Positions 1,524 to 15,241 of a stretch of DNA of 64,000 bases are shown piece after piece. Position numbers and translations under genes: made by a program. Location: the NCBI GenBank assembly GCA_030682795.1, contig JAUXNJ010000008.1:18753-82752 (forward strand). The letters are read 5' to 3'. The notes beneath the pieces are model-generated. The model did no database searches. It had not been told where the DNA came from and was given only the letters and a program-made list of their open reading frames with translations. The first letter of the stretch is position 1; each line of letters starts with the position of its first letter. Source of the stretch: Sphingobacteriaceae bacterium (lineage in GTDB: Bacteria; Bacteroidota; Bacteroidia; UBA7662).

Positions 1524-1636
1524 GCCACAAAGATAAGTGCTGAAAGGCTCGCCTCAGCAGCTTTCACTTTTCAAGGAGCAGTCTTCATAAAAATGAACAT
1601 TTGCCATGGCCAGGTTGTAATTTAGAGGTGCAAAGC

Positions 1637-2842
1637 ATGACGATGACAGCCAAAAACGCTTCTTCTATTTACCTCGACTACAACGCTACCACCCCGGTGC
1701 ATAGCGATGTGCTGGATGCCATGTGGCCATGGTTTTCGGAAGACTTTGGGAATGCCTCGAGCCGCTCGCATGCCTGGGGCTGGCGGGCTGAACAAGCCGT
1801 AAAGCAAGCCCGAATGGAGCTGCGGTCACTCATTGGCGCTGATCATGGCGAGCTGGTTTTTACCTCAGGTGCTACAGAGGCCTTGAATCTTGGGATCAAA
1901 GGACTCGCCAGCAGCTGGCGCGATAAAAAGAAGCACCTCATTTGCTGGGCAACCGAACACAAAGCGGTGCTGGATGTTTGTAAAGCCTTGCGCCGCGATG
2001 GATTCGATACGACCATCTTGCCGGTTTTGGCCAATGGTTTGCCCGATCTGGCTGCCTACGAAGCAGCCTTTCGTCCCGATACCTTATTGGTTTGCGGAAT
2101 GCTGGCCAATAACGAAACCGGTGTGATTTTCCCCATCCAACAATTGGCCGAAATGGCACATGCTCGAGGCAGCTTTTTTCTCTGCGATGCCACCCAGGCC
2201 GTGGGTAAAATCCCTGTCGATGTAAAGGCACTAAACGTGGATATGCTTTGCCTCTCGGCCCATAAATTTTACGGTCCTAAAGGTGTAGGGGCCCTTTGGC
2301 TGGCTAAAAAACCAGGACTCAAGTTACAGCCTTTGCTGCATGGCGGTGGGCATGAACAAGGCCTCCGTTCGGGTACCCTGGCAGTGCCCCTTTTGGTAGG
2401 CTTAGGTAAAGCCGCTGTAAAGGCAGCGGCAGATTTGCAGCAGCAGACCGGTCAGCTTGCCCAATTGCGCAACGATTTGGAAGTAGGCTTGGCGGCGGCA
2501 ATTCCTGAAATTCGCTTTTTAGGGGCTGAAGCAAACAGGCTGCCCAATACCAGCAATGTGTTTTTTGCAGATTGTCCCGCTGCCTCCCTTATCAAAGCCC
2601 TGCGCAAATTGGCGGTGGCCACGGGTTCGGCCTGTAGCTCCTTTGCTGCTAGTCCTTCCCATGTGCTCCTGGCCATGGGCTTGTCAGAAACCGAAGCGGG
2701 CTATTGTTTGCGCTTTAGTCTAGGGCGACCAACTACTTTCGAAGAGGTGCATGCAGCTGTTCAGCTCGTAGTGCAGGCTGTTACCTTGGTACGAGCAAGC
2801 TCTCCAGCTTGGCAATTCCGCGATAAAACGAACGCTTTTTGA
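1637..2842 (+). CDS. iscS: cysteine desulfurase (IscS/NifS family, PLP-dependent)
   Basis: The ATG at 1637 gives MTMTAKNASSIYLDYNATTPVH. The SAHKFYGPKGVGAL lysine motif and C-terminal SSGSAC..S motif are present. The track ORF start at 1601 is probably too long. Confidence 0.85.
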   Translation: MTMTAKNASSIYLDYNATTPVHSDVLDAMWPWFSEDFGNASSRSHAWGWRAEQAVKQARMELRSLIGADHGELVFTSGATEALNLGIKGLASSWRDKKKHLICWATEHKAVLDVCKALRRDGFDTTILPVLANGLPDLAAYEAAFRPDTLLVCGMLANNETGVIFPIQQLAEMAHARGSFFLCDATQAVGKIPVDVKALNVDMLCLSAHKFYGPKGVGALWLAKKPGLKLQPLLHGGGHEQGLRSGTLAVPLLVGLGKAAVKAAADLQQQTGQLAQLRNDLEVGLAAAIPEIRFLGAEANRLPNTSNVFFADCPAASLIKALRKLAVATGSACSSFAASPSHVLLAMGLSETEAGYCLRFSLGRPTTFEEVHAAVQLVVQAVTLVRASSPAWQFRDKTNAF

Positions 2843-2888
2843 ATATTTTTGTTGAATCTTTGTTGACTCATTGCTAGCATTAGAACCC

Positions 2889-3215
2889 ATGATTACCATC
2901 AGCGAAAACGCCGCCCATAAAGTGAAACAAATGCTCCAACAGCCTGAATTTGCGGAAAAACCGCTCATTCGGGTGAGTGTGGTGAGTGGCGGCTGCTCGG
3001 GATTGAGTTATAAAATGGACTTCGACGCGTCAGCCTTGGAAACAGATGAGCGCTTTGAAGACAAGGGCCTAACCCTCGTTTGCGATAAAAAAAGCTTTTT
3101 TTATCTCATAGGCACCGAGCTCGACTACAGCGAAGGTTTGCAAGGAAAAGGCTTCCACTTTGTGAATCCCAATGCCTCGCGCACTTGCGCTTGTGGCGAG
3201 AGTTTCTCACTTTAA
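2889..3215 (+). CDS. IscA/HesB/SufA-type Fe-S cluster insertion protein
   Basis: About 108 aa, ending in the CACGESF motif with an upstream Cys in VVSGGCSGLSY. It lies directly downstream of the cysteine desulfurase. Confidence 0.8.
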   Translation: MITISENAAHKVKQMLQQPEFAEKPLIRVSVVSGGCSGLSYKMDFDASALETDERFEDKGLTLVCDKKSFFYLIGTELDYSEGLQGKGFHFVNPNASRTCACGESFSL

Positions 3216-4622
3216 TTTTAGAATCCAGTCGCTTATTTTTTGCATGGCAGCGGCATCAAAGGTGATGTCTATTTCAGCATATTCGCTTACAGCACCTGTT
3301 TTGCTGGGTTGGAACAGGTGATTGAGTCCCGCCAGCGCCTCTACCTGCACTTGTGTATTCCCCCCTTTTTGTAAGGCCGTTTCAATGCCAGCTAAGTTTG
3401 ACTTGGCAATAACTTGTACATCTTTATCGCCGTTCAAGGCCAGTACTGGGCACTTCACCTGACTTAAAACGGGAGCTGGTTCATATCGAATGAAGTACAA
3501 AAACCAAGGGTCTGTATAGGTTTTTAGCGTGCTTTTTTGCTGTAATTCGAGCTGCTGCCTGGCTTCCACATCTCCAATTGGCAGCCGATTTAATGCTGTT
3601 ACAAATAAAGCCTGGATGCTGTCCTTGGCCTGCTCCACCGGCAAGTGCTTGAGCCAGCCAAATATGCTTTTATTGATAAGCAACTGCGAGTCTATGGTGG
3701 TTTGCGTTAATCCTTCGGTTGTTCCCACCGCCTGCAGCTGTTCGAGCAAGAGGGCATCAACGGGAATGCCCACGCCCGCAAGTAAGACCATAAAGCCAGC
3801 ATTGGGTCTTAAGCCATAAGCCAATGGAGCAATCATGCCGCCTTCGCTGTGCCCAATGAAGCCGATTTTTTGCTTATCAATGCCCTTGGTTTTTGCGAGA
3901 AAGTCGTACGCAGCGGCCGCATCTGTAGCAAAATCGGCGCTGGTTGCGGTATTAAAATCTCCCGTAGAACCGGCCACTCCACGGTCGTCGTAGCGTAGAA
4001 CTGCAATGCCTTGTCGGGTTAAAAAGTCCGACAGCACCAAAAACGGCTCGTGGTCAAAAACCTCCGAATTGCGGTTTTGAGGACCCGAACCTGAGATAAG
4101 AATGGCGGCAGGAAAGGGACCTTTGCCGGCCGGCATGCTTAAGGTGGCGGCTAACTGCAGCTGGGCATTTTTGTTTTTCACCTTTACCTCCTTGGTTTGG
4201 TAAGGATAGGGCTTGGCAGGCGTTTGTGAACGCACCACCGTTGCCACTTGGGCGGTGCCTTTTCCTGCAATTTGGCGCTTCAGATTCATAGGAAGTTGTC
4301 GACCTGCCTGGGTAAAGGTGCCTACAATGCTGTCGCCTGAGGTATAAATGCCTTGGTAGCGAATTTGGGCATTTGACACCGTAAAGATGAGTGTGTCACT
4401 TTGTACCTGTACGCTCGTTAATGGAATGTCGTATGCCTTTTGTTTCGGACTGTCGAACTTGCCCACGTAGCCGGTTTTGGTGTTGTTGAGGTGTACCACC
4501 AAGGGCAATTGCATGCCTTGAATGTTGAGCGCACCTTCCCAACTGCCTTCAAAAGCCGGCTGAGCCAGGGCTGTAAATTCACCAAAGAATACCAGGAAGC
4601 AAAGTGTAAAGAGTACTTTCAT
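3207..4622 (-). CDS. secreted alpha/beta-hydrolase (S9 peptidase/dienelactone-hydrolase-like)
   Basis: The start was chosen at MKVLFTLCFLVFFGEFTALAQ, a signal peptide. Nucleophile elbow GHSEGG is present, followed by a C-terminal hydrolase fold. Confidence 0.7.
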   Translation of the reverse strand: MKVLFTLCFLVFFGEFTALAQPAFEGSWEGALNIQGMQLPLVVHLNNTKTGYVGKFDSPKQKAYDIPLTSVQVQSDTLIFTVSNAQIRYQGIYTSGDSIVGTFTQAGRQLPMNLKRQIAGKGTAQVATVVRSQTPAKPYPYQTKEVKVKNKNAQLQLAATLSMPAGKGPFPAAILISGSGPQNRNSEVFDHEPFLVLSDFLTRQGIAVLRYDDRGVAGSTGDFNTATSADFATDAAAAYDFLAKTKGIDKQKIGFIGHSEGGMIAPLAYGLRPNAGFMVLLAGVGIPVDALLLEQLQAVGTTEGLTQTTIDSQLLINKSIFGWLKHLPVEQAKDSIQALFVTALNRLPIGDVEARQQLELQQKSTLKTYTDPWFLYFIRYEPAPVLSQVKCPVLALNGDKDVQVIAKSNLAGIETALQKGGNTQVQVEALAGLNHLFQPSKTGAVSEYAEIDITFDAAAMQKISDWILKLK

Positions 4623-4745
4623 AATTGACATTTGATGACGAAAAATACGCCAATAGAAGTCGGATACCAAAATGGTGACGTATTTTAACATTGGCATCAT
4701 GGTGGATAAAGCTGCCGGTTTCTGCTAAATAGTATCTTTGCCGCG

Positions 4746-6131
4746 ATGAAAAAATGGATTGCCCTCATCCGCCAGGCCGTCAGTGGCCAGGAGCAAGACT
4801 ACACTACTGGCAGCATCCGCATGGCGATTTTTTTGCTAGCCATCCCCATGATGTTGGAGATGGTGATGGAGTCGCTATTTGCCGTGGTCGACATTTTCTT
4901 TGTAGGCAAGCTGGGCGTAGCAGCAGTGGCTACGGTGGGACTAACCGAATCGGTGATCACGGTGATTTATGCCATCTCTATCGGGCTCAGCATGGCAGCC
5001 ACCGCCATGGTGGCGCGGCGCATTGGTGAAAAGAAACCGAAGGAAGCTTCGGATACGGCTTTTCAAGCCATCGCCCTAGGAAGCATTACCGCCCTGGTGC
5101 TGGGTATTGTTGGTTACACACAGGCCGAAAACCTCCTGCGCCTAATGGGTGCCGAGGATGCAGTGATTGCTGCAGGGGTAGGCTATACCCGCATCATCTT
5201 TTTGGGAAACTTGCCCATCATGCTGCTTTTTTTAATCAACGGCGTTTTCCGGGGAGCAGGCAAGCCTGCCATTGCCATGCGTGCGCTTTGGTTGGCCAAT
5301 GGTATCAACATCCTCCTCGACCCTATATTGATTTTTGGCTTCTGGATCTTTCCCGAATTAGGCATCGAAGGCGCGGCTTGGGCTACTACCATCGGACGAT
5401 CGATGGGTGTGCTTTACCAACTCTACCATTTATTGTTGAAGCCTAGTCAAATCAGATTGACCAAAGCAAACCTGGTGTTCAAACTTTCTACCGTATGGAC
5501 GCTGGTGAAGGTGGGTGCAGGCGGTATGGGGCAGTTTTTGATCGAATCGGCAAGCTGGATTGCCTTAACCCGCATCGTGGCAACGTCGGGGAGTATTGCT
5601 GTGGCGGGCTGGACAGTGGCCATTCGGGTGGTGATTTTCACGCTTTTACCGGCCATGGGATTGGCAAATGCGGCTACTACTTTGGTGGGACAAAATCTGG
5701 GTGCCGGGCAACCCGAACGGGCCGAAGCCTCGGTATGGAAGGCGGCACTTTACAATGCCATTTTCTTGGGGAGCTGCTCGATTTTATTTATCCTCTTTGG
5801 TGACCAAATCATTGGCCTGTTTAATTCCGACCCTGGTGTTTTGCTGGTAGGGAAGGAAGCGCTTTTTGTACTTTGCCTGGGTTATGTGTTTTTCGCTTAT
5901 GGCATGGTAATCGCACAAAGTTTCAATGGCGCGGGTGACACCTTAACCCCCACCATCATCAACATCATGATGTTTTGGGTGCTAGAAATCCCCTTGGCTT
6001 GGTACATGGCCCTGCATTTGGTCTGGGGTGCTACTGGCGTATTTTGGTCGGTGGCCATGTGTCACAGTCTGCATGCCTTGGTTAGCGTCTATATTTTCAA
6101 AAAAGGCCGCTGGAAATTGGTGAAGGTTTGA
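4746..6131 (+). CDS. MATE family efflux transporter
   Basis: 461 aa with 12 predicted TM segments and an LAIPMMLE N-terminal block typical of NorM/MATE. A TAnnTTTG box at 4733-4740 lies so close to the ATG that the true start may be the internal Met at 4821. Confidence 0.8.
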   Translation: MKKWIALIRQAVSGQEQDYTTGSIRMAIFLLAIPMMLEMVMESLFAVVDIFFVGKLGVAAVATVGLTESVITVIYAISIGLSMAATAMVARRIGEKKPKEASDTAFQAIALGSITALVLGIVGYTQAENLLRLMGAEDAVIAAGVGYTRIIFLGNLPIMLLFLINGVFRGAGKPAIAMRALWLANGINILLDPILIFGFWIFPELGIEGAAWATTIGRSMGVLYQLYHLLLKPSQIRLTKANLVFKLSTVWTLVKVGAGGMGQFLIESASWIALTRIVATSGSIAVAGWTVAIRVVIFTLLPAMGLANAATTLVGQNLGAGQPERAEASVWKAALYNAIFLGSCSILFILFGDQIIGLFNSDPGVLLVGKEALFVLCLGYVFFAYGMVIAQSFNGAGDTLTPTIINIMMFWVLEIPLAWYMALHLVWGATGVFWSVAMCHSLHALVSVYIFKKGRWKLVKV

Positions 6132-6153
6132 GCTAATTTTCGGTTCTTGTTGC

Positions 6154-7011
6154 ATGCAACTGAAAATCTGGCTGGTCCTTGCACTTTTCCTCCTCATTGC
6201 CTGGGTAAGCAAGCTTGTTTATGGCAAAATACAGCGTGCGGGATTGGTGGTGGTTACCTACAACATCCGTTACGACACCGCCAAGGATGGCACGAATGCC
6301 TGGCCGCATCGCAAGCGGCGTTTGATAGGCGAATTGATGAGTCACCAACCAGCCATCATTGGCATGCAAGAAGTATTACACCATCAATTGCAAGATGTCA
6401 AAGAACTACTGCCTGCACGTTTTAAGTACAGCGGCGTGGGCAGAGACGATGGTGCCAACCAGGGCGAATATGCCCCTATTTGGTACGACAGCACACTTTT
6501 CGAGCTGCAACAGCAAGGCACCTTTTGGCTGTCCGACACCCCAACAGCTCCAAGCAAAGGCTGGGATGCTGCCTTGCCGCGGATTTGCACTTGGGTTGCC
6601 TTAAAGCACCTGCGCGATGGCCGACAGTTATGGGTGTTTAATACCCATCTCGACCACCAAGGCATCGTGGCTCGTGAAAAAAGCACGGCCTTGATTGCTG
6701 AAATGGCTGCAGCCATTCCCGATCATCCGCCGGTGCTGCTGCTGGGCGACTTCAACAGCACCCCACAAGAAGCACCCCATCAGGTGCTTCAAAACGAAGG
6801 CTGGCTCGACGCCCGTGCTACCGCCGAAAAGCGGGAAGGCCCTATAGGTACCTTTCCCGATTTCGATGGCAAGCGCCCCGAAAAGCGCATCGACTTCCTC
6901 TACTACAAAAATCTCCCACCCCCGTTTATATATATCGTAGATGGTTCACCCGACCGCCAGCCTCCTTTTGCATCCGATCATTCGGCAGTGGTGGTAGGTT
7001 TTCCATGGTGA
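6154..7011 (+). CDS. endonuclease/exonuclease/phosphatase (EEP) family protein with N-terminal membrane anchor
   Basis: N-terminal hydrophobic helix. EEP blocks VVTYNIRYD, GMQEV, NTHLDH and SDHSAVV are present. Confidence 0.8.
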   Translation: MQLKIWLVLALFLLIAWVSKLVYGKIQRAGLVVVTYNIRYDTAKDGTNAWPHRKRRLIGELMSHQPAIIGMQEVLHHQLQDVKELLPARFKYSGVGRDDGANQGEYAPIWYDSTLFELQQQGTFWLSDTPTAPSKGWDAALPRICTWVALKHLRDGRQLWVFNTHLDHQGIVAREKSTALIAEMAAAIPDHPPVLLLGDFNSTPQEAPHQVLQNEGWLDARATAEKREGPIGTFPDFDGKRPEKRIDFLYYKNLPPPFIYIVDGSPDRQPPFASDHSAVVVGFPW

Positions 7012-7039
7012 TGCAAGTTGCAACGGCTGGCGTTTATTA

Positions 7040-7130
7040 GTCGGTGTTTAAACGTTTGTATACGTAAGTAAACGGTAACAAACGTTTAGCAAACGTATAC
7101 AAACGGTAACAAACGTTTAGCTCCCGAATC
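7040..7130. promoter_or_regulatory. operator-like repeat array (3x AAACGTTT palindrome, 2x GTATAC, 21-bp direct repeat) upstream of helicase gene
   Basis: AAACGTTT occurs at 7050, 7080 and 7111 (spacing 30/31 bp). The direct repeat AAACGGTAACAAACGTTTAGC occurs at 7070-7090 and 7101-7121. The inverted pair is AAACGTTTGTATACGT (7050-7065) and ACGTATACAAACGG (7093-7106). Confidence 0.5.
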
Positions 7131-7159
7131 TTAGGGCAACTGTTTTGCAATTTGCAGGC

Positions 7160-8827
7160 ATGAAACAGTTAACCCACGAGCAGCAAGCCATTCTCGCCGC
7201 AGATGGCGATTTAAAAATCAATGCCGTAGCCGGTTCCGGTAAAACGTCCACCTTGGTGGCGTATGCGAAGTCGCGACCAGCAGGCAGTAAACTACTCTAC
7301 TTGGCCTTTAATCGCACCGTACGAGAGGAGGCCGTGCAGCGTTTTGCGCAAGAAGGAATGAGCGGGGTGCGGGTAGAAACAGCGCATTCGTTGGCCTATA
7401 AAGACGTTGTGAGAAGCCGTAAACTGGAACTTACTTTTGGCTACAAAGCATACGAACTGGCACAGGTATTGGGCATCAAGAGCAAGGACCCAGAGATCAA
7501 GTACCTCTTGGCTACCCATACCCAGCGCTATTTGCAACTTTATTTAAATTCGAGTGCGCAGGCACATACCGAGTTAAATTATGCGGGTAGTTTGTTGGAC
7601 CCCAAGGCACGCTCCTTTGCCGATCGTTTTGCACAGGATTTATTGGGCTATACCACCAAGGCCTTGCAGCTTATTGAAAGCGGAGTGCTTCCCTGCGTAC
7701 ACGACTACTATTTGAAGCTTTACCAGCTTAAAAAGCCCAAACTTCGCTACGATTACTTGCTTTTTGACGAAGGTCAGGATGCGAGCAGCGTGATGCTCGA
7801 CGTTTTATTGAAGCAGTCGGCACGCAAAATCATTGTGGGCGATGTGCATCAGCAAATTTACGGCTGGCGCCAGGCGGTTAATTCACTGCAGCAGGTGCCT
7901 TTTCCAGCATACACCTTGAGCAACAGTTTCCGTTTTCCGGAAGAAATTGCCTCCCTCGCCAAAAGGGTGCTTCAATGGAAGCAATTATTGCCCCAGGCCA
8001 GTGATCCGGTAGCCTTAACAGGCTTGGGGCCGGAGAAGGGGCACATTAGGACCAGGGCTACTTTGGCGCGCTCGAATTTGTTTTTGTTGGATAAAGCCAT
8101 TCAGCTGCTACACGATCATCATTTCGAGCGCATTTGGTTTGAAGGCAATTTAGGTGCTTACACTTTTGCCTCAGATGGCACCAGTATTTTTGATGTATTG
8201 GCCTTGTTTGAGCACAAGCCTGAGCGCGTTAAGGATCCGCTATTGAAGGCCCTTGGCAGTTTTGAAAAGCTTGAAGAATATCTTGAAAAAGCCGAAGATC
8301 CTGAATTGGCCACCATTACTGAGATGGTGCGCAAACATGGCAACGAATTACCGGGCTACATCAGTGCGTTAAAAAATATGCAAGTACCAAGCGACCAAAG
8401 AGCGCAAGCAGATATGATTTTCAGCACCGTGCACCGAAGTAAGGGGCTGGAATACGATGAGGTGCAGCTCACCACCGATTTTGTGTCGGAAGACAAAATC
8501 ATTCGGGCAGTGGCCGACAACGACAAGCAAAAAGTGGCACGTTTGAATGAGGAAATTAATTTATTGTATGTAGCCATGACCCGGGCGCGCTATAATTTGC
8601 GACTTCCGATTTCACTTTGGCCGTCTGGACCCGTAACGCCTGTGCTTCCCGATGTGAGTACGGGTATGCCAGCGCGTAGGCGACGGGCGGGCATGTACAT
8701 GCGCAGCGACAAAAATGAATGGGATTGGGGTCACGGTAAAATGCAATTGGAAGAGGCCTACGACCCGTATTTGATTGAAGACTTAGAGCGTTCGATGCGT
8801 TATCCAGAAGAAGTTGCACCTCCTTGA
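7160..8827 (+). CDS. UvrD/PcrA-like superfamily-1 DNA helicase (short, ~555 aa)
   Basis: Walker A AVAGSGKTST and DEGQD (Walker B) are present, plus the UvrD_C-like block FSTVHRSKGLEYDEV. The track start 7145 is TTG; the ATG at 7160 (MKQLTHEQQAIL) is more likely. Confidence 0.8.
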   Translation: MKQLTHEQQAILAADGDLKINAVAGSGKTSTLVAYAKSRPAGSKLLYLAFNRTVREEAVQRFAQEGMSGVRVETAHSLAYKDVVRSRKLELTFGYKAYELAQVLGIKSKDPEIKYLLATHTQRYLQLYLNSSAQAHTELNYAGSLLDPKARSFADRFAQDLLGYTTKALQLIESGVLPCVHDYYLKLYQLKKPKLRYDYLLFDEGQDASSVMLDVLLKQSARKIIVGDVHQQIYGWRQAVNSLQQVPFPAYTLSNSFRFPEEIASLAKRVLQWKQLLPQASDPVALTGLGPEKGHIRTRATLARSNLFLLDKAIQLLHDHHFERIWFEGNLGAYTFASDGTSIFDVLALFEHKPERVKDPLLKALGSFEKLEEYLEKAEDPELATITEMVRKHGNELPGYISALKNMQVPSDQRAQADMIFSTVHRSKGLEYDEVQLTTDFVSEDKIIRAVADNDKQKVARLNEEINLLYVAMTRARYNLRLPISLWPSGPVTPVLPDVSTGMPARRRRAGMYMRSDKNEWDWGHGKMQLEEAYDPYLIEDLERSMRYPEEVAPP

Positions 8828-8886: not shown

Positions 8887-9615
8887 ATGACAGCTGCAAA
8901 ACTCAGTGTTAACATCAACAAAGTAGCCACCTTAAGAAACAGCAGGGGCGGCAACAATCCTGATTTGGTTAAGGTGGCTTTGGATTGCGAGCGCTTTGGG
9001 GCAGCGGGCATTACCGTGCACCCTCGACCCGACGAACGCCACATTCGTTATGCCGATGTGTATGCGCTCAAGGAAGTGTTGAGTACCGAATTCAACATCG
9101 AAGGCAACCCGAAGGAAGACAAGTTTGTGAAATTGGTGCTGGCTGTGAAGCCTACCCAGGTAACTTTGGTGCCTGACGTGACGGGGCAGCTTACCAGCGA
9201 CCACGGCTGGGATACCATTGCCGAGGCTGCTTATTTGAAGCAAATGATTGCGCGCTTCCAGGATGCAGGCATACGCACCTCCATTTTTGTGGATCCAGAC
9301 GAAAAACTGGTGGAGGCAGCGGCTGTTACTGGCACCGACCGCATTGAGCTGTATACCGAATCTTATGCACACCATTATGCGCTAGATAAAGAAGCTGCGG
9401 TGAGGCCATTTGTACAAGCAGCTATCAAGGCGCATGAAGTGGGGTTGGGATTGAATGCTGGTCACGATTTGTCGCTCGAAAACCTGGCCTATTTTGCGCA
9501 GCAGCTGCCGCATTTATTGGAGGTGTCGATTGGTCACGCCTTGATAAGTGATGCGCTCTATTTAGGATTGGAGAACACCATTCAACTGTACAGCAGGGCT
9601 TTGAAGCAAGGCTGA
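8887..9615 (+). CDS. pdxJ: pyridoxine 5'-phosphate synthase
   Basis: [17 protein letters not shown]...PDLV...[13 protein letters not shown] and GHDL blocks are diagnostic of PdxJ. Length is 242 aa. Confidence 0.9.
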
Positions 9616-9707
9616 TGGGTGATTCAGCCGCTGCTGTGAGCCTGAATGCGGTGGCGCTCGTGACGGAAAATTTATTAGAAATCATTGGCGACTTCAAGAT
9701 ATAATTA

Positions 9708-9715
9708 TATTTTTG
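9708..9715 (+). promoter_or_regulatory. candidate -7 box (TATTTTTG) with TTG -33 at 9686-9688 for the Rrf2-trmB operon
   Basis: Matches TAnnTTTG with a 19-nt spacer to TTG, and lies 19 nt before ATG 9734. Confidence 0.35.
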
Positions 9716-9733
9716 TCCGATTCTAGATACAGA

Positions 9734-10183
9734 ATGTTTTCAAAATCCTGCGAATACGGACTTCAGGCGATACTTTACATTGCGCTTCATGCGCGACCGG
9801 ATCGCAAAGTTGGCTTGAAAGAAATAGCCGACAACCAGGACATCCCTGCCCATTTTTTGAGCAAAATCCTGCAAATTCTCGTTAAATATAAGTTGCTGGT
9901 TTCAGTAAAGGGTCCCAACGGCGGATTTGCCCTTTACCGCAAAGCCGAGGACATTACCCTGCTCGAAGTAGTATCGGCCATCGATGGTCTTGATATTTTT
10001 GAGCGCTGCGGCATTGGGCTAAAGCATTGTGACGATGCGCATCCTTGCCCGATCCACAACAAATTCAAATTCCTCCGGGAAAGCATCCGCAACACCCTCA
10101 TGAAAGAAACATTGGCCGACCTCATTTTCGCAGTAGAAGAGGGTAAGACCTATGTGACGCTCAAGAATTTAACATCCGAATAA
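9734..10183 (+). CDS. Rrf2-family (IscR-like) transcriptional regulator with 3-Cys cluster-ligand motif
   Basis: MFSKSCEYGLQAILYIAL is an N-terminal wHTH. The motif CGIGLKHCDDAHPC resembles the IscR Fe-S ligands. The track start at 9713 is TTG and falls inside the promoter box. Confidence 0.8.
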   Translation: MFSKSCEYGLQAILYIALHARPDRKVGLKEIADNQDIPAHFLSKILQILVKYKLLVSVKGPNGGFALYRKAEDITLLEVVSAIDGLDIFERCGIGLKHCDDAHPCPIHNKFKFLRESIRNTLMKETLADLIFAVEEGKTYVTLKNLTSE

Positions 10184-10186
10184 GCT

Positions 10187-10855
10187 TTGTCTAGAAGAAA
10201 ACTGGTTCATTTCGCTGAAATGGATCAGATGCCGCACGTTTTTCAGCATCCCGAAAATATGCCAGGTCAGTGGTCGGCTTATTTTGGCAATGACCTTCCC
10301 CTTGTTTTAGAAGTAGGTTGCGGTACAGGGCGCTATACCGTGGGTTTGGCTGAGTTGTACCCACAGTCCAATTACATCGGTACCGATATCAAGGGTGCCC
10401 GCATGTGGCACGGGGCCACCTATGTGCGCGATAAAGGCATCAAAAATGCTGCTTTTTTGCGTACCCGCATCGAGCAAATCGAGACTTATTTTGCGCCTGG
10501 TGAGGTTTCTGAAATTTGGATTACCTTCCCCGATCCGCAGCCGCGCGAAAGCAGGGAACGCAAACGCTTGCCTTCGAAGCGCTTTTTAGACCTCTATACC
10601 AAAATTTTGAAGCCTGGTGGTAAGCTGTACCTCAAAACCGACAATTCCGATTTATTTGCTTTTGCCACGGAGGTTTGGCAGGTCTATACAGGTTTAGAAA
10701 TTGTGCAGCACAGCACCGACTTGTATGCAAGCAACATCCAAGGAGCGGCTACAGCCATCCAAACGGTGTATGAAGAACGCTACCGCGCGCAGGGGATACC
10801 TATTAATTATATGGAAGCCGTTTTTCACGGGCATCCAGCTGCACCGGAGCTTTAG
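10187..10855 (+). CDS. trmB: tRNA (guanine46-N7)-methyltransferase
   Basis: KLVHFAEM...PHVFQ, VLEVGCGTGRYTV and DIKGARMW blocks are present. Only a TTG start is available, because an in-frame TAA at 10181 (the Rrf2 stop) lies 3 nt upstream. Confidence 0.85.
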   Translation: MSRRKLVHFAEMDQMPHVFQHPENMPGQWSAYFGNDLPLVLEVGCGTGRYTVGLAELYPQSNYIGTDIKGARMWHGATYVRDKGIKNAAFLRTRIEQIETYFAPGEVSEIWITFPDPQPRESRERKRLPSKRFLDLYTKILKPGGKLYLKTDNSDLFAFATEVWQVYTGLEIVQHSTDLYASNIQGAATAIQTVYEERYRAQGIPINYMEAVFHGHPAAPEL

Positions 10856-11469
10856 GCCTCGAGGGCTTCCAGCTTTTCTTGCATATCGGTAAATTCTTTG
10901 ATGCCGGGGCGTTGCTCCTGTCCGCCATACAAACAAACGGCATAGGGCTCGAGGGTGTTTACCATTTCACGCAATTGTTCGGCATCGGCGGGAATGTCGA
11001 TGATGCAACGGTTATGTGCACAGGCCGATTTCAACAGCTCGAGCACCTGGCGATTGGCGCGGGTGAGGGTCCAATTCGGGAAAATTTCATCGGCATGCAC
11101 CAAGAGGTAGACGCCATCAAAATGCCGCAAGCCAGCTTGATCGAGGGCCGATAGCTTCAGGCGCAAAATGGTTTCGGCATGCACCGAACGGGCGTAGCCA
11201 GCATAGAGGGCAAAGTCGAGTTCTACTGCTTCGAGTTCGTAATTATCAATTTCACGGTTCAGATCGTCGGGAGCAATGAGGTTAAAATTGCCCACAATTT
11301 TTGGTCCGCTCAACCAGCCGCGCATTTCCATCATACTACTGGGGGTAACATAATTCGAGGAAGCAGGGTCGAAACTAAAGCCAACAAACTCAGCATCAGC
11401 AGCCGCGGCAAAGCGCGCATCGCTGAGGTTGGTGAGGTCTTTGAAATAAAGGCGCGTGATGTATCCCAT
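10852..11469 (-). CDS. phosphoribosylanthranilate isomerase (TrpF)-like protein, stand-alone
   Basis: The start was chosen at MGYITRLYF. It aligns to TrpF in the AxAGADxxGFxF block (AAADAEFVGFSF) and the C-terminal PGIKxxxxxxxF block (RPGIKEFTDMQEKL). The canonical catalytic Cys near the N-terminus is not evident. Confidence 0.5.
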   Translation of the reverse strand: MGYITRLYFKDLTNLSDARFAAAADAEFVGFSFDPASSNYVTPSSMMEMRGWLSGPKIVGNFNLIAPDDLNREIDNYELEAVELDFALYAGYARSVHAETILRLKLSALDQAGLRHFDGVYLLVHADEIFPNWTLTRANRQVLELLKSACAHNRCIIDIPADAEQLREMVNTLEPYAVCLYGGQEQRPGIKEFTDMQEKLEALEA

Positions 11470-11562
11470 AAGTTGAAATGATAGGCACAAAATACGGAAA
11501 AGCGCTTCGAATAGGCTTACGTTTTTTGAAATTTCACTCCTCATTACAGTATTTTTGTGCCA

Positions 11563-11907
11563 ATGACAAATGGCTCAAGCAACGACTTCTACCAAAACGT
11601 TTACGAGCTAGTGCGGCTCATTCCCCCGGGCCGGGTAACGAGCTACGGCGCCATAGCCCGCTATTTGGGCAGTGCGCGCTCGAGCCGACTGGTGGGCTGG
11701 GCCATGAACGCCTCCCATACCCTGACCGATCCTGTGCCTGCACACCGGGTGGTGAACCGCATCGGCTTGCTCACCGGCAAACATTTTTTTAGCACGCCCA
11801 ACCGCATGCAAGAACTTTTAGAGGCCGAAGGTGTAGTTATACAGGAGGACCAAGTGCAGCAATTCGACCGCATTTTTTGGGATCCCGCACAGGAGTTAGC
11901 CCTATGA
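11563..11907 (+). CDS. alkyltransferase-like (ATL) protein, MGMT DNA-binding domain without nucleophilic Cys
   Basis: FYQNVYELVRLIPPGRVTSYGAIARYLG...VPAHRVVN matches the MGMT helix-turn-helix and Asn hinge, but PCHR has become PAHR. The track start 11557 is GTG; the ATG is at 11563. Confidence 0.75.
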   Translation: MTNGSSNDFYQNVYELVRLIPPGRVTSYGAIARYLGSARSSRLVGWAMNASHTLTDPVPAHRVVNRIGLLTGKHFFSTPNRMQELLEAEGVVIQEDQVQQFDRIFWDPAQELAL

Positions 11908-12536
11908 GTACTGCCAAACAGCTTTATCAGTGGATTGAAGAAGGAGAACACGTACAGCAAGACTTCAAAGAAACCATCAGCAGTTCCCGCAAAATCGCCA
12001 AAACCATTTGTTCGTTCGCCAATACACGGGGAGGTCGCATTTTAGTGGGGGTGCGCGACAACCGGGCCATCCGCGGCATCAAGGCCGAAGAAGAACAGCA
12101 CATGCTGGAGGCTGCCGCCAGCTTCTTCTGCAAAAAAGAAGTGCCTTTGCGCTTTGAATTGATACAGCTAGGTTTAAAACAAGTGCTCGTGGCCCATGTG
12201 CCCGAAAGCGAGCACAAGCCAGTGTTTACTTTGGGGGATGATGAGCAGTGGTGGGCCTACATCCGGGTAAAAGACAAATGCCTGTTGGCGAGTAAAACCG
12301 TGCTCGATGTGATTCGGCGGGAACAAAAGGGCGAAAACAACCTCATTGAGCTAGGGAGCAAAGAAGAAGGCTTGCTGAAGTACCTCGACCAAAACGAGCG
12401 CATCACCCTCAAGGGCTTTTGCAAACTCATGAACATTGCGCCGTGGCGGGCTCGTAAAATACTGGTGAAGCTCATCACCGCCGGCGTAGTGCGGGTACAC
12501 ACCACTGAAAAGCAAGAATTTTATACCCTGGCTTAA
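11904..12536 (+). CDS. AlbA_2 (Schlafen-like divergent-AAA DNA-binding) domain protein with C-terminal winged HTH
   Basis: The AlbA_2 signature is EHVQQDFKE...IAKTICSFANTRGGRILVGVRDNRAIRGI. The C-terminal stretch LLKYLDQNERITLKGFCKLMNI...ARKILVKLITAGVV looks like a wHTH. Its start overlaps the ATL stop codon (ATGA). Confidence 0.6.
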   Translation: MSTAKQLYQWIEEGEHVQQDFKETISSSRKIAKTICSFANTRGGRILVGVRDNRAIRGIKAEEEQHMLEAAASFFCKKEVPLRFELIQLGLKQVLVAHVPESEHKPVFTLGDDEQWWAYIRVKDKCLLASKTVLDVIRREQKGENNLIELGSKEEGLLKYLDQNERITLKGFCKLMNIAPWRARKILVKLITAGVVRVHTTEKQEFYTLA

Positions 12537-12639
12537 GCTGCTAAGCCGTTGAAAGCCTTGCAGAAAGGACTCCAGGCCGTTTTTGGGGATGCCAACGATT
12601 TATTCACAATCGGCTGTTGGAAAGTCAAAAAGCTTCTGC

Positions 12640-12647
12640 TATATTTG
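12640..12647 (+). promoter_or_regulatory. candidate -7 box (TATATTTG) for the ribosomal-protein operon, TTG -33 at 12617-12619
   Basis: Matches TAnnTTTG and lies about 40 nt upstream of the rplM start. Confidence 0.35.
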
Positions 12648-12686
12648 CAGTCCTTTTTAAAATCAACATTTAACTAATTAAAAGCA

Positions 12687-13130
12687 GTGAATACGTTAAG
12701 TTACAAAACTGTCTCTGCCAACCGCGAAACGGTTGTGAAAAAATGGTATCTGATAGATGCCGAAACAGAGATTGTGGGGCGCCTTGCGAGCAAGGTAGCT
12801 AGTGTGCTTCGTGGTAAGCACAAACCCGACTACACCCCACACGTAGACTGCGGCGATAATGTAATCATTATCAATGCAGACAAGGTGAGATTCACAGGTG
12901 ACAAAATGCGCGAAAAAGACTACTTTTTCTACTCTGGGCATCCAGGTGGAAAGCGTCTGGTGGCCGCTAAGGACCTGATGGAGCGTCGACCTACCTACGT
13001 GGTGGAAAAAGCCATCAAAGGCATGCTCCCTAAGAACCGACTCGGTCGTGAAATGTTCCGCAATTTGTATGTATATGCCGGCAACGAGCATCCACATGCA
13101 GCTCAGCAACCTGAAACACTCAAATTCTGA
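12687..13130 (+). CDS. rplM: 50S ribosomal protein L13
   Basis: KKWYLIDAETEIVGRLASKVASVLRGKHKPDYTPHVDCGDNVIIINADK is an L13 signature. The start is GTG; no in-frame ATG is available. Confidence 0.9.
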   Translation: MNTLSYKTVSANRETVVKKWYLIDAETEIVGRLASKVASVLRGKHKPDYTPHVDCGDNVIIINADKVRFTGDKMREKDYFFYSGHPGGKRLVAAKDLMERRPTYVVEKAIKGMLPKNRLGREMFRNLYVYAGNEHPHAAQQPETLKF

Positions 13131-13137
13131 TCTCATC

Positions 13138-13524
13138 ATGTCTGTAGTTAACAAAATTGGCAGAAGAAAAAATGCTATTGCCCGCGTTTACGTAACGGCT
13201 GGTTCTGGCAACATTGAGGTGAACGGTCGCCCGTACACTGAATATTTCCCTTTGGAGACCCTCCAGCAATTGGTGCTCAAGGCTTTTGCAGCCACCAATA
13301 CAGTAGGTCAGTTTGATGTGAAGGCTACCTTAAATGGTGGTGGTGTGAGTGGTCAGGCTGAGGCCTTACAACTGGCGCTTGCTCGTGCATTAGACGAGAT
13401 CAACCCAGAGCACCATACCGCATTGAAGGCTGATAAGTTACTGACCCGCGACCCACGCATGGTGGAACGCAAGAAGTTCGGTCAACGCAAAGCCCGTCGT
13501 CGTTTCCAGTTCAGCAAACGTTAA
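13138..13524 (+). CDS. rpsI: 30S ribosomal protein S9
   Basis: [19 protein letters not shown]...[11 protein letters not shown]...[12 protein letters not shown]. The ATG at 13138 is internal to the track ORF 13048-13524. Confidence 0.9.
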
Positions 13525-13543
13525 TCAAAGGAGGAATCTTACA

Positions 13544-14344
13544 ATGGCAAGAGTTACATACCAGGAATTACTGGATGCAGGTGTACATTTTGGACACCTC
13601 AAGCGTAAGTGGCACCCTAAGATGGCCCCTTACATCTTCATGGAGAAGAATGACATTCACATCATCGACTTGAACAAAACGCAGGACAAGCTTGAAGAAG
13701 CTGCCAACGCGATCAAGCAGATTGTGAAGTCTGGACGCAAAGTCCTTTTCGTAGCTACCAAAAAGCAAGCGAAAGAAATCATTGAAACCGAAGCAAAGCG
13801 CCTCAACATGCCGTTCGTTACCGAGCGTTGGTTGGGTGGCATGCTTACCAACTTCGCGACCGTACGCAAGTCGATCAAGAAGATGGGCAACATCGACAAG
13901 ATGGAGCAGAACGGCACAATGCAGACTTTGTCGAAAAAAGAGCGTTTGATGATTGCGCGTGAGCGTGAAAAGATGCAGCGTGTATTGGGTGGTATCGAGG
14001 ATTTGACTCGTCTCCCTGCAGCATTGTTCATCATCGACATCAAAAACGAGCACATCGCTGTTAAAGAAGCTCAAAAATTAAACATCCCTACCATTGCGAT
14101 GGTGGATACCAACTCGGATCCAACCTTGGTTGATTTCCCTATCCCAGCGAATGATGACGCTACCAAGTCGATTGCCTTGATTTCAAAGGTGATTATGAAG
14201 GCGGTAGAAGAAGGTTTGCAGGAGCGCAAGCATGATAAGGAGGCTGAAGCGGCTGAAACGCCTGAGCCAGCTAAAGAGGTTGTTGCTGAAACCACGGTGG
14301 TTGCGGAAGCAACCGACGCCGGGGCAGAAACCCCCGAGGCATAA
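13544..14344 (+). CDS. rpsB: 30S ribosomal protein S2
   Basis: [32 protein letters not shown]. It is preceded by a canonical AAAGGAGG Shine-Dalgarno 9 nt upstream. Confidence 0.9.
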
Positions 14345-14407
14345 TATCGGATGGGTTGGCGCAAGTCAGCCCATCTTTTTTTAACGAAAAATTCAAACAA
14401 CCATAAC

Positions 14408-15241
14408 ATGAACATTACAGCTGCTGATGTAAACAAGTTGCGCCAGCTTACGGGTGCCGGTATGATGGACTGTAAAAAAGCCCTCACCGAAGCCAATGGC
14501 GATTTCGAAGAAGCGGTAGTGATCCTCCGCAAAAAGGGTCAAAAAGTATCGGCGAGTCGTGCCGACCGTGAAGCCAACGAAGGCGTTATTATTGCCCTTA
14601 CTTCTGCGGATGCAACCTTCGGCTTGATTGCTGAGGTGACTTGCGAAACCGACTTCGTTGCTAAAAACGAAGAATTTGGTTCATTGGCGCAAGAAATTGC
14701 GACCATCGCTATGAACAAAAACATTAGTGACAAAGAAGCTTTGTTGCAGGAGCACATTGGCGGCATTACCATTGCTGAGAAGTTGATTGAGTACACTGGC
14801 AAAATCGGTGAAAAAATCTCTTTGCACCGTTTGGTAACTGTAGCTGGTGAAGGTGTGGTGTCGTATGTACACAGCAACAACAAACTTGGCGTATTGGTAG
14901 CTTTGAACCACGCTGCGAATGCCGAGGTAGAAGCTGCTGGTAAAGACGTAGCGATGCAGATTGCTGCCATGAACCCAGTTGCGGTTGACAAAGGCGACGT
15001 TGATCCTTCGGTGATTGAGCGTGAAATCGAAATTGGCAAGGACCAAGCCCGTCAAGAAGGCAAGCCAGAAGCCATTGTAGAAAAAATTGCCATGGGTAAG
15101 CTCAACAAGTTTTACCAGGACAATACCCTGTTGAATCAGGCTTTTGTGAAAGACAATGGCGTGAACATCGCGCAAATGCTCGACAAAGTGGCCAAGGGTT
15201 TAACGGTGAAGTCGTTTGCACGTGTTGCGATTGGCTCTTAA
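14408..15241 (+). CDS. tsf: elongation factor Ts
   Basis: MNITAADVNKLRQLTGAGMMDCKKALTEANGDFEEAV is the EF-Ts N-terminus. The track start at 14351 adds 19 non-conserved residues. Confidence 0.9.
   Translation: MNITAADVNKLRQLTGAGMMDCKKALTEANGDFEEAVVILRKKGQKVSASRADREANEGVIIALTSADATFGLIAEVTCETDFVAKNEEFGSLAQEIATIAMNKNISDKEALLQEHIGGITIAEKLIEYTGKIGEKISLHRLVTVAGEGVVSYVHSNNKLGVLVALNHAANAEVEAAGKDVAMQIAAMNPVAVDKGDVDPSVIEREIEIGKDQARQEGKPEAIVEKIAMGKLNKFYQDNTLLNQAFVKDNGVNIAQMLDKVAKGLTVKSFARVAIGS

What the first reader, a model, noticed from the sequence alone, without database searches (positions are those of the whole stretch)
11563..12536. Cys-less alkyltransferase-like (ATL) protein translationally coupled to an AlbA_2/wHTH Schlafen-like protein
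The 114-aa protein has the full MGMT DNA-binding fold motifs but PAHRVV in place of PCHRVV. It is therefore an ATL-type O6-alkylguanine damage sensor and not a repair enzyme. An Ala at that position is known from Thermus ATL. Its stop overlaps (ATGA) the start of a 210-aa protein made of an AlbA_2 (divergent-AAA/Schlafen-type) DNA-binding domain plus a C-terminal winged helix. ATL proteins are thought to hand alkyl lesions to nucleotide excision repair. A dedicated, co-translated AlbA_2/wHTH partner would suggest a lesion-sensing/regulatory or defence-like two-gene module. I am not aware of a description of this pairing.
Basis: partly seen in the sequence, partly recalled or inferred. Interest (0 to 1): 0.6.

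Follow-up and report, generated by a model that had tools for sequence, protein, structure and literature searches.

The report
Lineage-restricted ATL and Schlafen-like gene pair
A non-enzymatic sensor of alkylated DNA and a Schlafen-like nucleic-acid-binding gene overlap by four bases here, but the pairing occurs only in one small group of uncultured Bacteroidota, so it is most likely an ordinary local operon and not a dedicated two-gene system.

Summary
Window 11563-11907 encodes a 114-aa Cys-less alkyltransferase-like (ATL) protein with the motif PAHRV. Its TGA stop overlaps, as ATGA, the ATG start of a 210-aa AlbA_2/Schlafen-fold plus winged-helix protein (11904-12536).

The proposed dedicated module does not hold up. 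Among the 80 closest genomic orthologues of the AlbA_2 protein, only 8 have an ATL nearby. These 8 form two neighbouring basal clades that share local synteny, so one ancestral juxtaposition is enough to explain them. The other 72, and three more distant family members, sit beside unrelated housekeeping genes. Conversely, none of 80 ATL-selected metagenomic loci carries an AlbA_2 gene.

The ATL's conserved partner is trmB (tRNA m7G46 methyltransferase), found directly upstream on the same strand in 43 of 70 loci, often followed by mrp/apbC and nifU. The slot downstream of ATL varies: AlbA_2 here, tag-polA in Anseongella, selU-selD in Maribellus.

PAHRV is the norm for this Bacteroidota ATL family (117 of 120). 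There is no defence signature.

Two by-products may be worth a look: the trmB-ATL linkage, and the invariant Schlafen-type E-x4-D-x-K plus D motif in the AlbA_2 protein.

Verdict: a lineage-specific bicistronic operon made of two known kinds of protein. Low interest.

The parts
11526..11557 (+). Promoter-like region in front of the ATL gene. It has sigma-70-like hexamers TTGAAA-18-TATTTT (11526-11555) and a Bacteroidota-type -7 motif TATTTTTG (11550-11557), 5 nt before the ATG.
   Evidence: Consensus scan. A TAnnTTTG-like motif lies 12-30 nt upstream of the ATL ATG in the window and in 3 of 6 relatives, with a near-match TATTTTTA in the other 3. This is a consensus match only, not evidence of function.
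11563..11907 (+). ATL gene: a 114-aa Cys-less alkyltransferase-like protein with a single MGMT C-terminal-type domain.
   Evidence: PF01035 E 3.9e-23. Below every Ogt/Ada cut-off in NCBIfam. Atl1 3gva E 5.9e-15. AF2 plus Foldseek give Atl1 as the top hit.
11737..11751 (+). Codons for P59-A60-H61-R62-V63, the PCHRV-equivalent motif with Ala in place of the acceptor Cys.
   Evidence: Read directly from the sequence. These columns are invariant in alignment A2. PAHRV occurs in 117 of the 120 best homologues.
11904..11907 (+). ATGA: the ORF2 start codon overlaps the ATL stop codon.
   Evidence: Conserved in L001-L005, L161 and L163.
11904..12536 (+). ORF2: a 210-aa AlbA_2/Schlafen-fold plus winged-helix protein.
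   Evidence: PF04326 E 1.9e-20. AF2 pLDDT 91.9. Foldseek. The family has at least 6439 clusters at E<=1e-10, and all named members are Bacteroidota.
11904..12329 (+). AlbA_2/Schlafen-core domain (residues 1-142), with invariant E15, D20, K22 and D52.
   Evidence: Invariant columns in A1. D52 aligns with SLFN14 D249. The E-x4-D-x-K spacing equals that of the CbCash catalytic residues E17/D22/K24 (PMC13462974). Catalytic competence is inferred, not shown.
12357..12530 (+). C-terminal winged helix-turn-helix (residues 152-209).
   Evidence: DSSP on the model gives H152-163, H169-176, H180-192, E196-200 and E205-209. Foldseek hits CadC/ArsR, MarR, AdcR and ZitR.
10187..10855 (+). Context: trmB, tRNA (guanosine46-N7)-methyltransferase. 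It is the conserved upstream neighbour of this ATL family.
   Evidence: NF001080 TrmB equivalog, 225.9 bits against a cut-off of 132. trmB lies upstream of ATL in 43 of 70 loci.
10852..11469 (-). Context: a divergent PRAI/TrpF-like 205-aa gene on the opposite strand, lying between trmB and ATL.
   Evidence: No Pfam hit. PDB 1dl3 E 2.6e-6. Weak NCBIfam TrpF hits below cut-off. Called as 205 aa in L161 and L163, so the start is probably ATG 11469 and not 11544.
12640..13130 (+). Context: promoter-like TATATTTG (12640-12647) and rplM (12687-13130), the first gene of rplM-rpsI-rpsB-tsf-pyrH.
   Evidence: Pfam labels of the orthologous genes in L161.

Best explanation
This is a lineage-specific bicistronic operon that joins two genes with independent evolutionary histories.

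Gene 1 is the standard Bacteroidota ATL. It is a non-catalytic sensor of O6-alkylguanine. By homology it flips the damaged base into its pocket using an Arg finger (R42) and a Tyr (Y28), and marks the lesion for UvrABC nucleotide excision repair. Across Bacteroidota it is ancestrally linked to trmB and mrp/apbC.

Gene 2 belongs to a large family of roughly 210-aa proteins, seen here only in Bacteroidota, whose chromosomal neighbours differ from lineage to lineage. It has a Schlafen-type AlbA_2 domain that retains the acidic/Lys active-site motif, plus a wHTH. It is probably a nucleic-acid-binding protein or nuclease with a housekeeping role of its own.

In an ancestor of the window's lineage the second gene came to lie just downstream of ATL and upstream of the rplM operon. 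The 4-nt ATGA overlap then fixed co-transcription from the ATL promoter and coupled translation.

Shown: domain identities, the overlap, and the phylogenetic distribution of the adjacency. Inferred: the biochemical activities, co-transcription, and the absence of a functional dependence between the two proteins.
For: AlbA_2 side:
- Only 8 of 80 nearest orthologous loci have an ATL within 4 kb (tblastn; HMM; 7 of the 78 with at least 400 nt upstream).
- Seven of these 8 loci (all except L005, which holds too little upstream sequence to tell) share the upstream trmB synteny of the window, five of them with pdxJ as well. All 8 fall in two clades that are adjacent at the base of the AlbA_2 tree, so one event suffices.
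- The remaining 72 loci sit beside MATE, GNAT, a thioesterase-like gene, purQ, icd, a nitronate-monooxygenase-like gene, uppS-bamA and others (labels read from the sequences, not scanned against Pfam), with no common theme.
- Three distant members (38-42% identity) also lack ATL.

ATL side:
- None of 80 metagenomic ATL loci (58-69% identity; 65 have at least 700 nt downstream) has an AlbA_2 gene.
- trmB lies directly upstream on the same strand in 43 of 70 loci. In 26 of 44 pairs the genes overlap or are no more than 60 nt apart.
- mrp/apbC lies downstream in 22 of 59 loci.
- Named genomes show different occupants of the downstream slot: Cryomorphaceae has trmB-ATL-mrp-nifU, Anseongella has ATL-tag-polA, and Maribellus has trmB-ATL-selU-selD-mrp.

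Within the clade:
- The ATGA overlap is conserved.
- Relatives at 74-79% ATL identity keep ATL-AlbA_2-rplM.
- There is a promoter-like motif before ATL and none between the two genes.

Other:
- GC content is even across the region, and there is no defence hit.
Against: - The pair has stayed together, with the exact 4-nt overlap, across relatives down to 67% AlbA_2 identity.
- It also stayed together where 2.5 kb was inserted just upstream (L163).
- It persists in a second clade (L067/L069/L078) with a spacer of about 100 nt. Operon membership is often functionally meaningful, so a lineage-specific functional link cannot be excluded.
- Only up to 80 loci per scan were sampled, out of more than 560 AlbA_2 and more than 597 ATL candidates.
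- Co-occurrence of the two genes in whole genomes was not tested.
Confidence: 0.7

Rival explanations
1. There is a genuine functional partnership, restricted to this lineage. ATL bound to an O6-alkylguanine lesion recruits or activates the AlbA_2/wHTH protein as a nuclease or regulator.
For: The ATGA overlap is conserved in eight genomes spanning 67-99% AlbA_2 identity. Adjacency is retained after an upstream insertion and in the L067 clade. ORF2 keeps a Schlafen-type active-site motif.
Against: A single origin is sufficient. Both families are widespread without each other as neighbours. Elsewhere the ATL's conserved partner is trmB. No interaction evidence of any kind exists.
Confidence: 0.17
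2. The cluster is about RNA or tRNA. TrmB (the m7G46 writer), ATL (a reader of alkylated guanine) and the Schlafen-like protein (a tRNase-type nuclease) would act together on methylated or damaged tRNA rather than on DNA.
For: The trmB-ATL operon-like linkage is conserved across divergent Bacteroidota. Prokaryotic and mammalian Schlafen domains cleave tRNA (PMC13462974). ORF2 keeps the E-x4-D-x-K plus D motif.
Against: All characterised ATLs bind DNA lesions and feed NER (PMC10779285). In Anseongella the ATL sits next to tag and polA, which is a DNA alkylation-repair context. The AlbA_2 gene is not linked to trmB or ATL outside one lineage. The idea rests on gene order alone.
Confidence: 0.06
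3. ORF2 is the local transcription factor of the operon: a wHTH repressor or activator with an AlbA_2 sensor domain that controls ATL expression.
For: ORF2 has a C-terminal wHTH of the ArsR/MarR type. Sources name the family 'predicted HTH transcriptional regulator'.
Against: The same gene is conserved next to unrelated genes in 72 of 80 lineages, which is not the behaviour of a dedicated local regulator. No inverted-repeat operator was found in 10800-12800.
Confidence: 0.05
4. It is an anti-phage defence or abortive-infection module built on a Schlafen-like effector.
For: Many prokaryotic Schlafen-domain proteins are associated with defence systems (PMC13462974). There is a weak PADLOC match of ORF2 to the N-terminal part of a pAgo model (E 0.0015).
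Against: No PADLOC system hit was found for either protein. The genes are embedded in core housekeeping genes with even GC content. The family behaves as a vertically inherited gene in at least 560 species genomes. No sensor or ATPase domain is present, and no mobile-element genes lie nearby.
Confidence: 0.02

Closest known systems
Alkyltransferase-like proteins: S. pombe Atl1 (3gva/3gx4), E. coli YbaZ/eATL, Vibrio parahaemolyticus vpAtl (2kif), Thermus thermophilus TTHA1564
   Same: A single-domain protein of about 110 aa with the MGMT C-terminal fold. The HTH, Arg finger (R42 = Atl1 R39) and Tyr (Y28 = Atl1 Y25) are kept. The acceptor Cys is absent. The predicted structure is closest to Atl1 and vpAtl. 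The general ATL properties are as reviewed in PMC10779285.
   Different: The position has Ala instead of the usual Trp (PWHRV). From my own knowledge, Ala is also found in Thermus TTHA1564 (Morita et al. 2008); I could not verify this in the held literature. The genomic context differs too: the gene is linked to trmB and mrp across Bacteroidota, and to an AlbA_2 gene only in this lineage.
Schlafen-domain nucleases: mammalian SLFN11/13/14 and the prokaryotic CRISPR-associated Schlafen CbCash (9ylu)
   Same: AlbA_2/Schlafen-core fold. ORF2 has invariant E15-x4-D20-x-K22 and D52, which correspond in spacing to CbCash E17/D22/K24 and to SLFN14 E211/E216/D249. The SLFN14 residue numbers other than E211 come from memory.
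   Different: ORF2 has no CARF/Csx15, ATPase, helicase or NACHT sensor domain, only a wHTH. It has no link to a defence system. It is a single AlbA_2 lobe of about 140 aa rather than the two-lobed mammalian core. Sequence similarity is marginal (E 1e-3 to 1e-2). Nuclease activity is untested.
COG2865-type bacterial 'AlbA_2 - HATPase_c_4 - wHTH' putative regulators, e.g. Corynebacterium DIP2311 (3lmm) and the Nitrosomonas RecG-related N-domain (2kyy)
   Same: These are the best structural matches for ORF2. They share an N-terminal AlbA_2 domain combined with a C-terminal wHTH, and the same source annotations ('predicted HTH transcriptional regulator', 'ATP-binding protein').
   Different: ORF2 is a minimal 210-aa version without the central HATPase_c_4-like domain (3lmm chains are about 480-580 aa). 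The function of these relatives is also unknown.

Membership tests
Alkyltransferase-like (ATL) proteins | MGMT C-terminal (DNA_binding_1) fold present as a single domain, without the AGT N-terminal domain | tested here: met
   PF01035 covers residues 8-91 of 114. AF2 plus Foldseek give full-length matches to Atl1 (TMq 0.74, TMt 0.79) and vpAtl. Catalytic AGTs match only through their C-terminal domains.
Alkyltransferase-like (ATL) proteins | The acceptor Cys of PCHRV is replaced (Trp in most ATLs, Ala in some) | tested here: met
   P59-A60-H61-R62-V63. These columns are invariant in the family alignment. The protein scores below all Ogt/Ada cut-offs in NCBIfam.
Alkyltransferase-like (ATL) proteins | Base-flipping apparatus conserved: HTH with an Arg finger and a Tyr | tested here: met
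   R42 and Y28 align with Atl1 R39 and Y25 and are invariant in A2. The requirement is stated in PMC10779285.
Alkyltransferase-like (ATL) proteins | Binds O6-alkylguanine DNA without alkyl transfer, and interacts with UvrA/NER | not testable with these tools
   Biochemical property; inferred from homology only.
Schlafen / AlbA_2 domain family (PF04326) | Profile match above the curated threshold, and the AlbA_2 fold | tested here: met
   74 bits against a cut-off of 25.3. Foldseek probability is 1.00 to 3lmm, 2kyy, SLFN13, SLFN11 and the SAMD9 tRNase domain.
Schlafen-type nucleases (SLFN11/13/14, CbCash) | Catalytic acidic/Lys residues (E-x4-[ED]-x-K and a downstream D) | tested here: inconclusive
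   E15, D20, K22 and D52 are invariant in A1, and E15, K22 and D52 are invariant in the distant set A3. D52 aligns with SLFN14 D249. The E/D/K correspondence rests on identical spacing and on ungapped extension of that alignment. A residue-level alignment to CbCash could not be obtained.
Schlafen-type nucleases (SLFN11/13/14, CbCash) | Metal-dependent tRNA/RNA cleavage | not testable with these tools
   Needs an in vitro assay.
   8 of 80 from the AlbA_2 side, in two adjacent basal clades; seven of the eight share the upstream trmB synteny, and L005 holds too little upstream sequence to tell. 0 of 80 from the ATL side. 0 of 3 distant AlbA_2 members.
Anti-phage defence systems (PADLOC) | Match to a known or candidate defence protein model, and a defence-island context | tested here: not met
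   No hit for ATL. ORF2 has only a weak hit (E 0.0015) to the N-terminal part of a pAgo model. The neighbours are ribosomal-protein, tRNA-modification and vitamin B6 genes.
Winged helix-turn-helix DNA-binding domains | Three helices followed by a beta-hairpin wing, with structural similarity to known wHTH regulators | tested here: met
   H152-163, H169-176, H180-192, E196-200 and E205-209. Foldseek hits CadC, AdcR, ZitR, BpsR and MarR.

The most novel reading that the evidence does not exclude
The Bacteroidota PAHRV-type ATL is not only a DNA-lesion flag for NER. It is functionally tied to the tRNA m7G46 methyltransferase TrmB, with which it forms a conserved and often overlapping gene pair, for example as a reader of methylated or alkylated guanine in RNA or as a TrmB accessory factor. 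In the window's lineage this unit has additionally captured a Schlafen-type (tRNase-like) protein, giving a three-gene guanine-methylation and tRNA surveillance cluster.
Probability: 0.08. Interest if true: 0.65.

Novelty: new member of a known kind. Interest (0 to 1): 0.2.

Why it matters
As proposed, a dedicated ATL partner would have pointed to a new branch of alkylation-damage signalling. The evidence shows that the pairing is a local accident of gene order in one uncultured Bacteroidota lineage, so it does not open that question.

Three things of modest value remain:
- Ala-type (PAHRV) ATLs are the rule in Bacteroidota, not an oddity.
- This ATL family has a conserved, unreported operon-like linkage to trmB, and often to mrp/apbC-nifU. 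This could guide experiments on what ATLs do in a phylum where they have not been studied.
- A very large family of minimal AlbA_2-wHTH proteins, seen here only in Bacteroidota, keeps the Schlafen nuclease motif and is entirely uncharacterised.

Tried and rejected
- Defence-system reading: PADLOC found nothing for ATL or the PRAI-like gene, and only a weak match of ORF2 to the N-terminal part of a pAgo model. Rejected.
- Horizontal-transfer island: GC is even at 0.46-0.54 across 8-16 kb, and no repeats or inverted repeats flank the pair. Rejected.
- Hidden RNA element: no Rfam match at E<=0.1 in 9000-14500.
- Divergent AlbA_2 proteins missed by tblastn near ATLs: a family HMM search of all ORFs in the 80 ATL loci gave no hit at E<=1.
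- Divergent MGMT-family genes near AlbA_2 orthologues: the ATL HMM found only the same 8 loci.
- Residue-level alignment of ORF2 to CbCash: CbCash appears in the profile search (E 0.0037) but its alignment was not printed. A second attempt with the N-terminal 77 residues did not recover it.
- Checking the literature for the Thermus Ala-ATL and for any ATL-trmB or ATL-Schlafen link: no paper holds 'alkyltransferase-like' together with 'trmB' or 'gene neighbo'. The only paper with 'Schlafen' is unrelated. A search for 'PAHRV' gave only irrelevant hits. Three primary or review papers are not held.
- One context look-up (P0262) returned only a 1-kb contig.
- Prediction of the ATL-ORF2 complex could not be attempted, because the structure tool takes single chains from the window only.
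- mrp and nifU are not in the 64-kb window, and neither gene has a second copy there.
Full report
**1. What is in the sequence**

On the + strand, an ATG at 11563 opens a 114-codon frame that ends with TGA at 11905-11907. An ATG at 11904 opens a 210-codon frame that ends at 12536.

ORF1 matches PF01035 over residues 8-91 (E 3.9e-23). It falls below every Ogt/Ada cut-off in NCBIfam. Its best solved relative is the S. pombe alkyltransferase-like protein Atl1 (E 5.9e-15). In that alignment Y28 and R42 match the Atl1 base-flipping residues Y25 and R39, and A60 of P59-A60-H61-R62-V63 takes the place of Atl1 W56, the position of the acceptor Cys in true alkyltransferases. An AlphaFold2 model (pLDDT 91.1) superposes over its full length on Atl1 (TM 0.74-0.79) and on the Vibrio ATL 2kif, ahead of all catalytic AGTs.

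ORF2 matches PF04326 (SLFN_AlbA_2; E 1.9e-20). Its AlphaFold2 model (pLDDT 91.9) shows an alpha/beta AlbA_2 domain over residues 1-142, followed by three helices and a beta-hairpin over residues 152-209. Foldseek matches the first part to DIP2311 (3lmm), 2kyy, SLFN13/11/14/5 and the SAMD9 tRNase domain. It matches the second part to ArsR/MarR-type winged helices.

**2. Is the pairing conserved? Test from the AlbA_2 side**

ORF2 belongs to a large and uniform family of proteins of about 203-225 aa. There are at least 6439 clusters at E<=1e-10, and 650 representatives at 50% identity score E<=1e-10. Every named member comes from Bacteroidota.

A scan of one genome per species found more than 560 genomes with a relative, and the best 80 loci were fetched with 4-kb flanks. 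tblastn and a family HMM find an ATL gene in only 8 of the 80 loci. Counting only the 78 loci with at least 400 nt upstream, the figure is 7.

- Five of the eight (L001-L005, 67-80% identical to ORF2) have the same 4-nt overlap. Where enough flank is held, they also share part or all of the window's gene order pdxJ-rrf2-trmB-(PRAI-like, minus strand)-ATL-AlbA_2-rplM-rpsI-rpsB-tsf-pyrH.
- Three of the eight (L067, L069, L078, about 52% identical) have ATL about 100 nt upstream and share pdxJ-trmB.
- In a neighbour-joining tree of the AlbA_2 proteins, these two groups are the two basal branches and are adjacent in the unrooted topology. A single juxtaposition, or a single loss, explains all cases.
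- In the other 72 loci the orthologue is flanked by lineage-specific housekeeping genes, with no common theme. Read from their sequences rather than scanned against Pfam, these look like a MATE transporter, a GNAT acetyltransferase, a thioesterase-like protein, purQ, isocitrate dehydrogenase, a nitronate-monooxygenase-like enzyme and uppS-bamA.
- Three still more distant members (38-42% identity) lie beside an integrase and a T9SS-tail protein, beside CofC-like and DUF4112 genes, and beside pyrB-pyrI and a diphthamide-synthase-like gene.

**3. Test from the ATL side**

The ATL has more than 7997 homologues. The 120 best are proteins of about 110 aa from Bacteroidota, annotated 'MGMT family protein', and 117 of them carry PAHRV. 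Ala at this position is therefore the family norm, not a peculiarity.

A metagenome scan with the family alignment returned 80 loci at 58-69% identity. None contains an AlbA_2 gene by tblastn or HMM, and 65 of them have at least 700 nt of sequence downstream.

What recurs instead is trmB. The window copy at 10187-10855 is a TrmB equivalog, scoring 225.9 bits against a cut-off of 132.
- trmB lies directly upstream on the same strand in 43 of the 70 loci with enough upstream sequence.
- With refined start codons, 26 of 44 pairs overlap or are no more than 60 nt apart, and 13 of those overlap.
- Downstream, mrp/apbC (ParA/NUBPL plus FeS_assembly_P) occurs in 22 of 59 loci and is often followed by nifU.

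Contexts with gene calls agree with this picture.
- Cryomorphaceae: acyltransferase-trmB-ATL-mrp-nifU, with a 4-nt trmB/ATL overlap.
- Maribellus: gldH-trmB-ATL-selU-selD-mrp.
- Anseongella: ATL-tag-polA.
- ATLs at 79% and 74% identity (L161, L163) belong to the window's clade and keep ATL-AlbA_2-rplM with the overlap. L163 keeps it despite a 2.5-kb insertion just upstream.

The stable unit is therefore trmB-ATL(-mrp). The position after ATL is a variable slot, and the AlbA_2 gene occupies it in one lineage only.

**4. Transcription unit**

A sigma-70-like site (11526-11555) and a Bacteroidota-type TAnnTTTG motif (TATTTTTG, 11550-11557) lie just before the ATL start. Similar motifs occur 12-30 nt upstream of the ATL start in the relatives. 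There is no such motif between the two genes. A separate TATATTTG at 12640 precedes rplM.

These are consensus matches only. Together with the overlap they make a bicistronic ATL-ORF2 mRNA with coupled translation the most likely arrangement. This is an inference.

**5. What the two proteins probably do**

For ATL the inference rests on established knowledge of the family. ATLs bind O6-alkylguanine, flip it into the pocket using the HTH, the Arg finger and the Tyr, have no transferase activity, and recruit UvrA/UvrC (review PMC10779285). All the sequence and structural requirements are met here. The tag-polA neighbourhood in Anseongella fits a role in DNA alkylation repair.

For ORF2 no function is known. 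Its invariant residues are G14, E15, D20, K22, the KIAKT-FAN-GG segment and D52.
- D52 aligns with SLFN14 D249.
- E15-x4-D20-x-K22 has the same spacing as the experimentally verified catalytic E17/D22/K24 of the prokaryotic Schlafen tRNase CbCash (PMC13462974). By ungapped extension it also matches SLFN14 E211/E216/K218.

I therefore think it is more likely a metal-dependent nuclease, or at least a protein that binds nucleic-acid ends or loops, tethered to DNA by a wHTH, than a plain 'DNA-binding' protein. This is an inference from a motif and was not tested.

**6. Alternatives considered**

- A real ATL-ORF2 partnership confined to this lineage cannot be excluded. The long-term retention of the overlap is the only argument for it.
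- A tRNA-centred reading (TrmB writer, ATL reader, Schlafen-like nuclease) is the most novel idea the data allow. It rests on gene order alone, and the DNA-repair context of other ATLs argues against it.
- A role as local regulator is unlikely, because the gene keeps changing neighbours.
- A defence role is close to excluded. There is no PADLOC system, the surroundings are core housekeeping genes, GC content is even, inheritance appears vertical, and no sensor or ATPase domain is present.

**7. Novelty and verdict**

The ATL is a typical member of a known kind. The AlbA_2-wHTH protein is a typical member of a large family that has been annotated but not characterised. Their juxtaposition is a lineage-specific operon.

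I found no paper linking ATL with AlbA_2/Schlafen proteins or with trmB. The absence of a prior description of the pairing reflects its narrow distribution rather than an overlooked system.

Interest is low, at about 0.2. The trmB-ATL linkage and the conserved Schlafen-type motif in a family seen here only in Bacteroidota are the only leads I would pass on.

Noticed in passing
window 10187-10855 (trmB) and 11563-11907 (ATL); loci L081-L160, L164, L167, L168: trmB (tRNA m7G46 methyltransferase) directly upstream of the PAHRV-type ATL, on the same strand, is the conserved linkage of this ATL family. It holds in 43 of 70 metagenomic loci, and in 26 of 44 pairs the genes overlap or are no more than 60 nt apart. 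Genes upstream of trmB vary, so this is a specific pair. No paper in the library mentions ATL together with trmB.
   Followed up: partly
L084, L088, L091, L164, L165 and others (downstream of ATL): An mrp/apbC-type Fe-S carrier ATPase (ParA/NUBPL plus FeS_assembly_P), followed by a small NifU-like gene, lies downstream of ATL in 22 of 59 loci. trmB-ATL-mrp-nifU therefore looks like the ancestral Bacteroidota block. Neither mrp nor nifU is in the 64-kb window.
   Followed up: partly
window 11904-12329 (ORF2 residues E15, D20, K22, D52): The AlbA_2 domain keeps an invariant E-x4-D-x-K motif plus a downstream Asp. The spacing matches the catalytic residues of the prokaryotic Schlafen tRNase CbCash (E17/D22/K24) and SLFN14 (E211/E216/D249). 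This suggests that a very large 210-aa family, seen here only in Bacteroidota, consists of nucleases rather than mere binders.
   Followed up: partly
window 10852-11544 (minus strand; probable true start 11469): A divergent PRAI/TrpF-like 205-aa gene with no Pfam hit (PDB 1dl3, E 2.6e-6) sits on the opposite strand between trmB and ATL. Homologues occupy the same slot in unrelated metagenomic loci (L083, L086, L113). trmB-ATL gaps of about 580-630 nt in L088, L151 and L152 would fit the same insert. The first in-frame ATG (11544) probably over-extends the gene by 25 codons.
   Followed up: partly
L166 (Anseongella sp. MAG), 192-4033: Here the ATL is followed by tag (3-methyladenine DNA glycosylase I, PF03352) and polA. 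This is a compact alkylation-repair cluster that supports a DNA-repair role for this ATL family.
   Followed up: no
L167/L168 (Maribellus), 3501-7125: selU (tRNA 2-selenouridine synthase) and a selD-like fusion protein are inserted between ATL and mrp. This is another tRNA-modification gene next to the trmB-ATL pair.
   Followed up: no
window 7145-8827: A short (560-aa) UvrD/Rep-like SF1 helicase, far below all equivalog cut-offs, lies upstream of pdxJ-rrf2-trmB. This synteny is conserved in the closest relative (L161).
   Followed up: no
protein P0258: A 2337-aa protein matches the ORF2 segment 21-70 (the KIAKT-FAN-GG-GV-D core) in 13 separate stretches. It appears to be a giant protein made of tandem AlbA_2-like repeats.
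   Followed up: no
L011, L012, L014, L053, L067 (record titles): MAG records carrying this Bacteroidota-type gene and neighbourhood are labelled Agrobacterium, Bifidobacteriaceae, Burkholderiales, Comamonas or Sphingomonadales. These are probably mislabelled or contaminated bins.
   Followed up: no
L163, 894-3123: In one close relative, a 2.5-kb insertion lies between the PRAI-like gene and ATL. It carries an AAA_14/DUF4143 ATPase and a Por_Secre_tail protein. The ATL-AlbA_2-rplM block is left intact.
   Followed up: no
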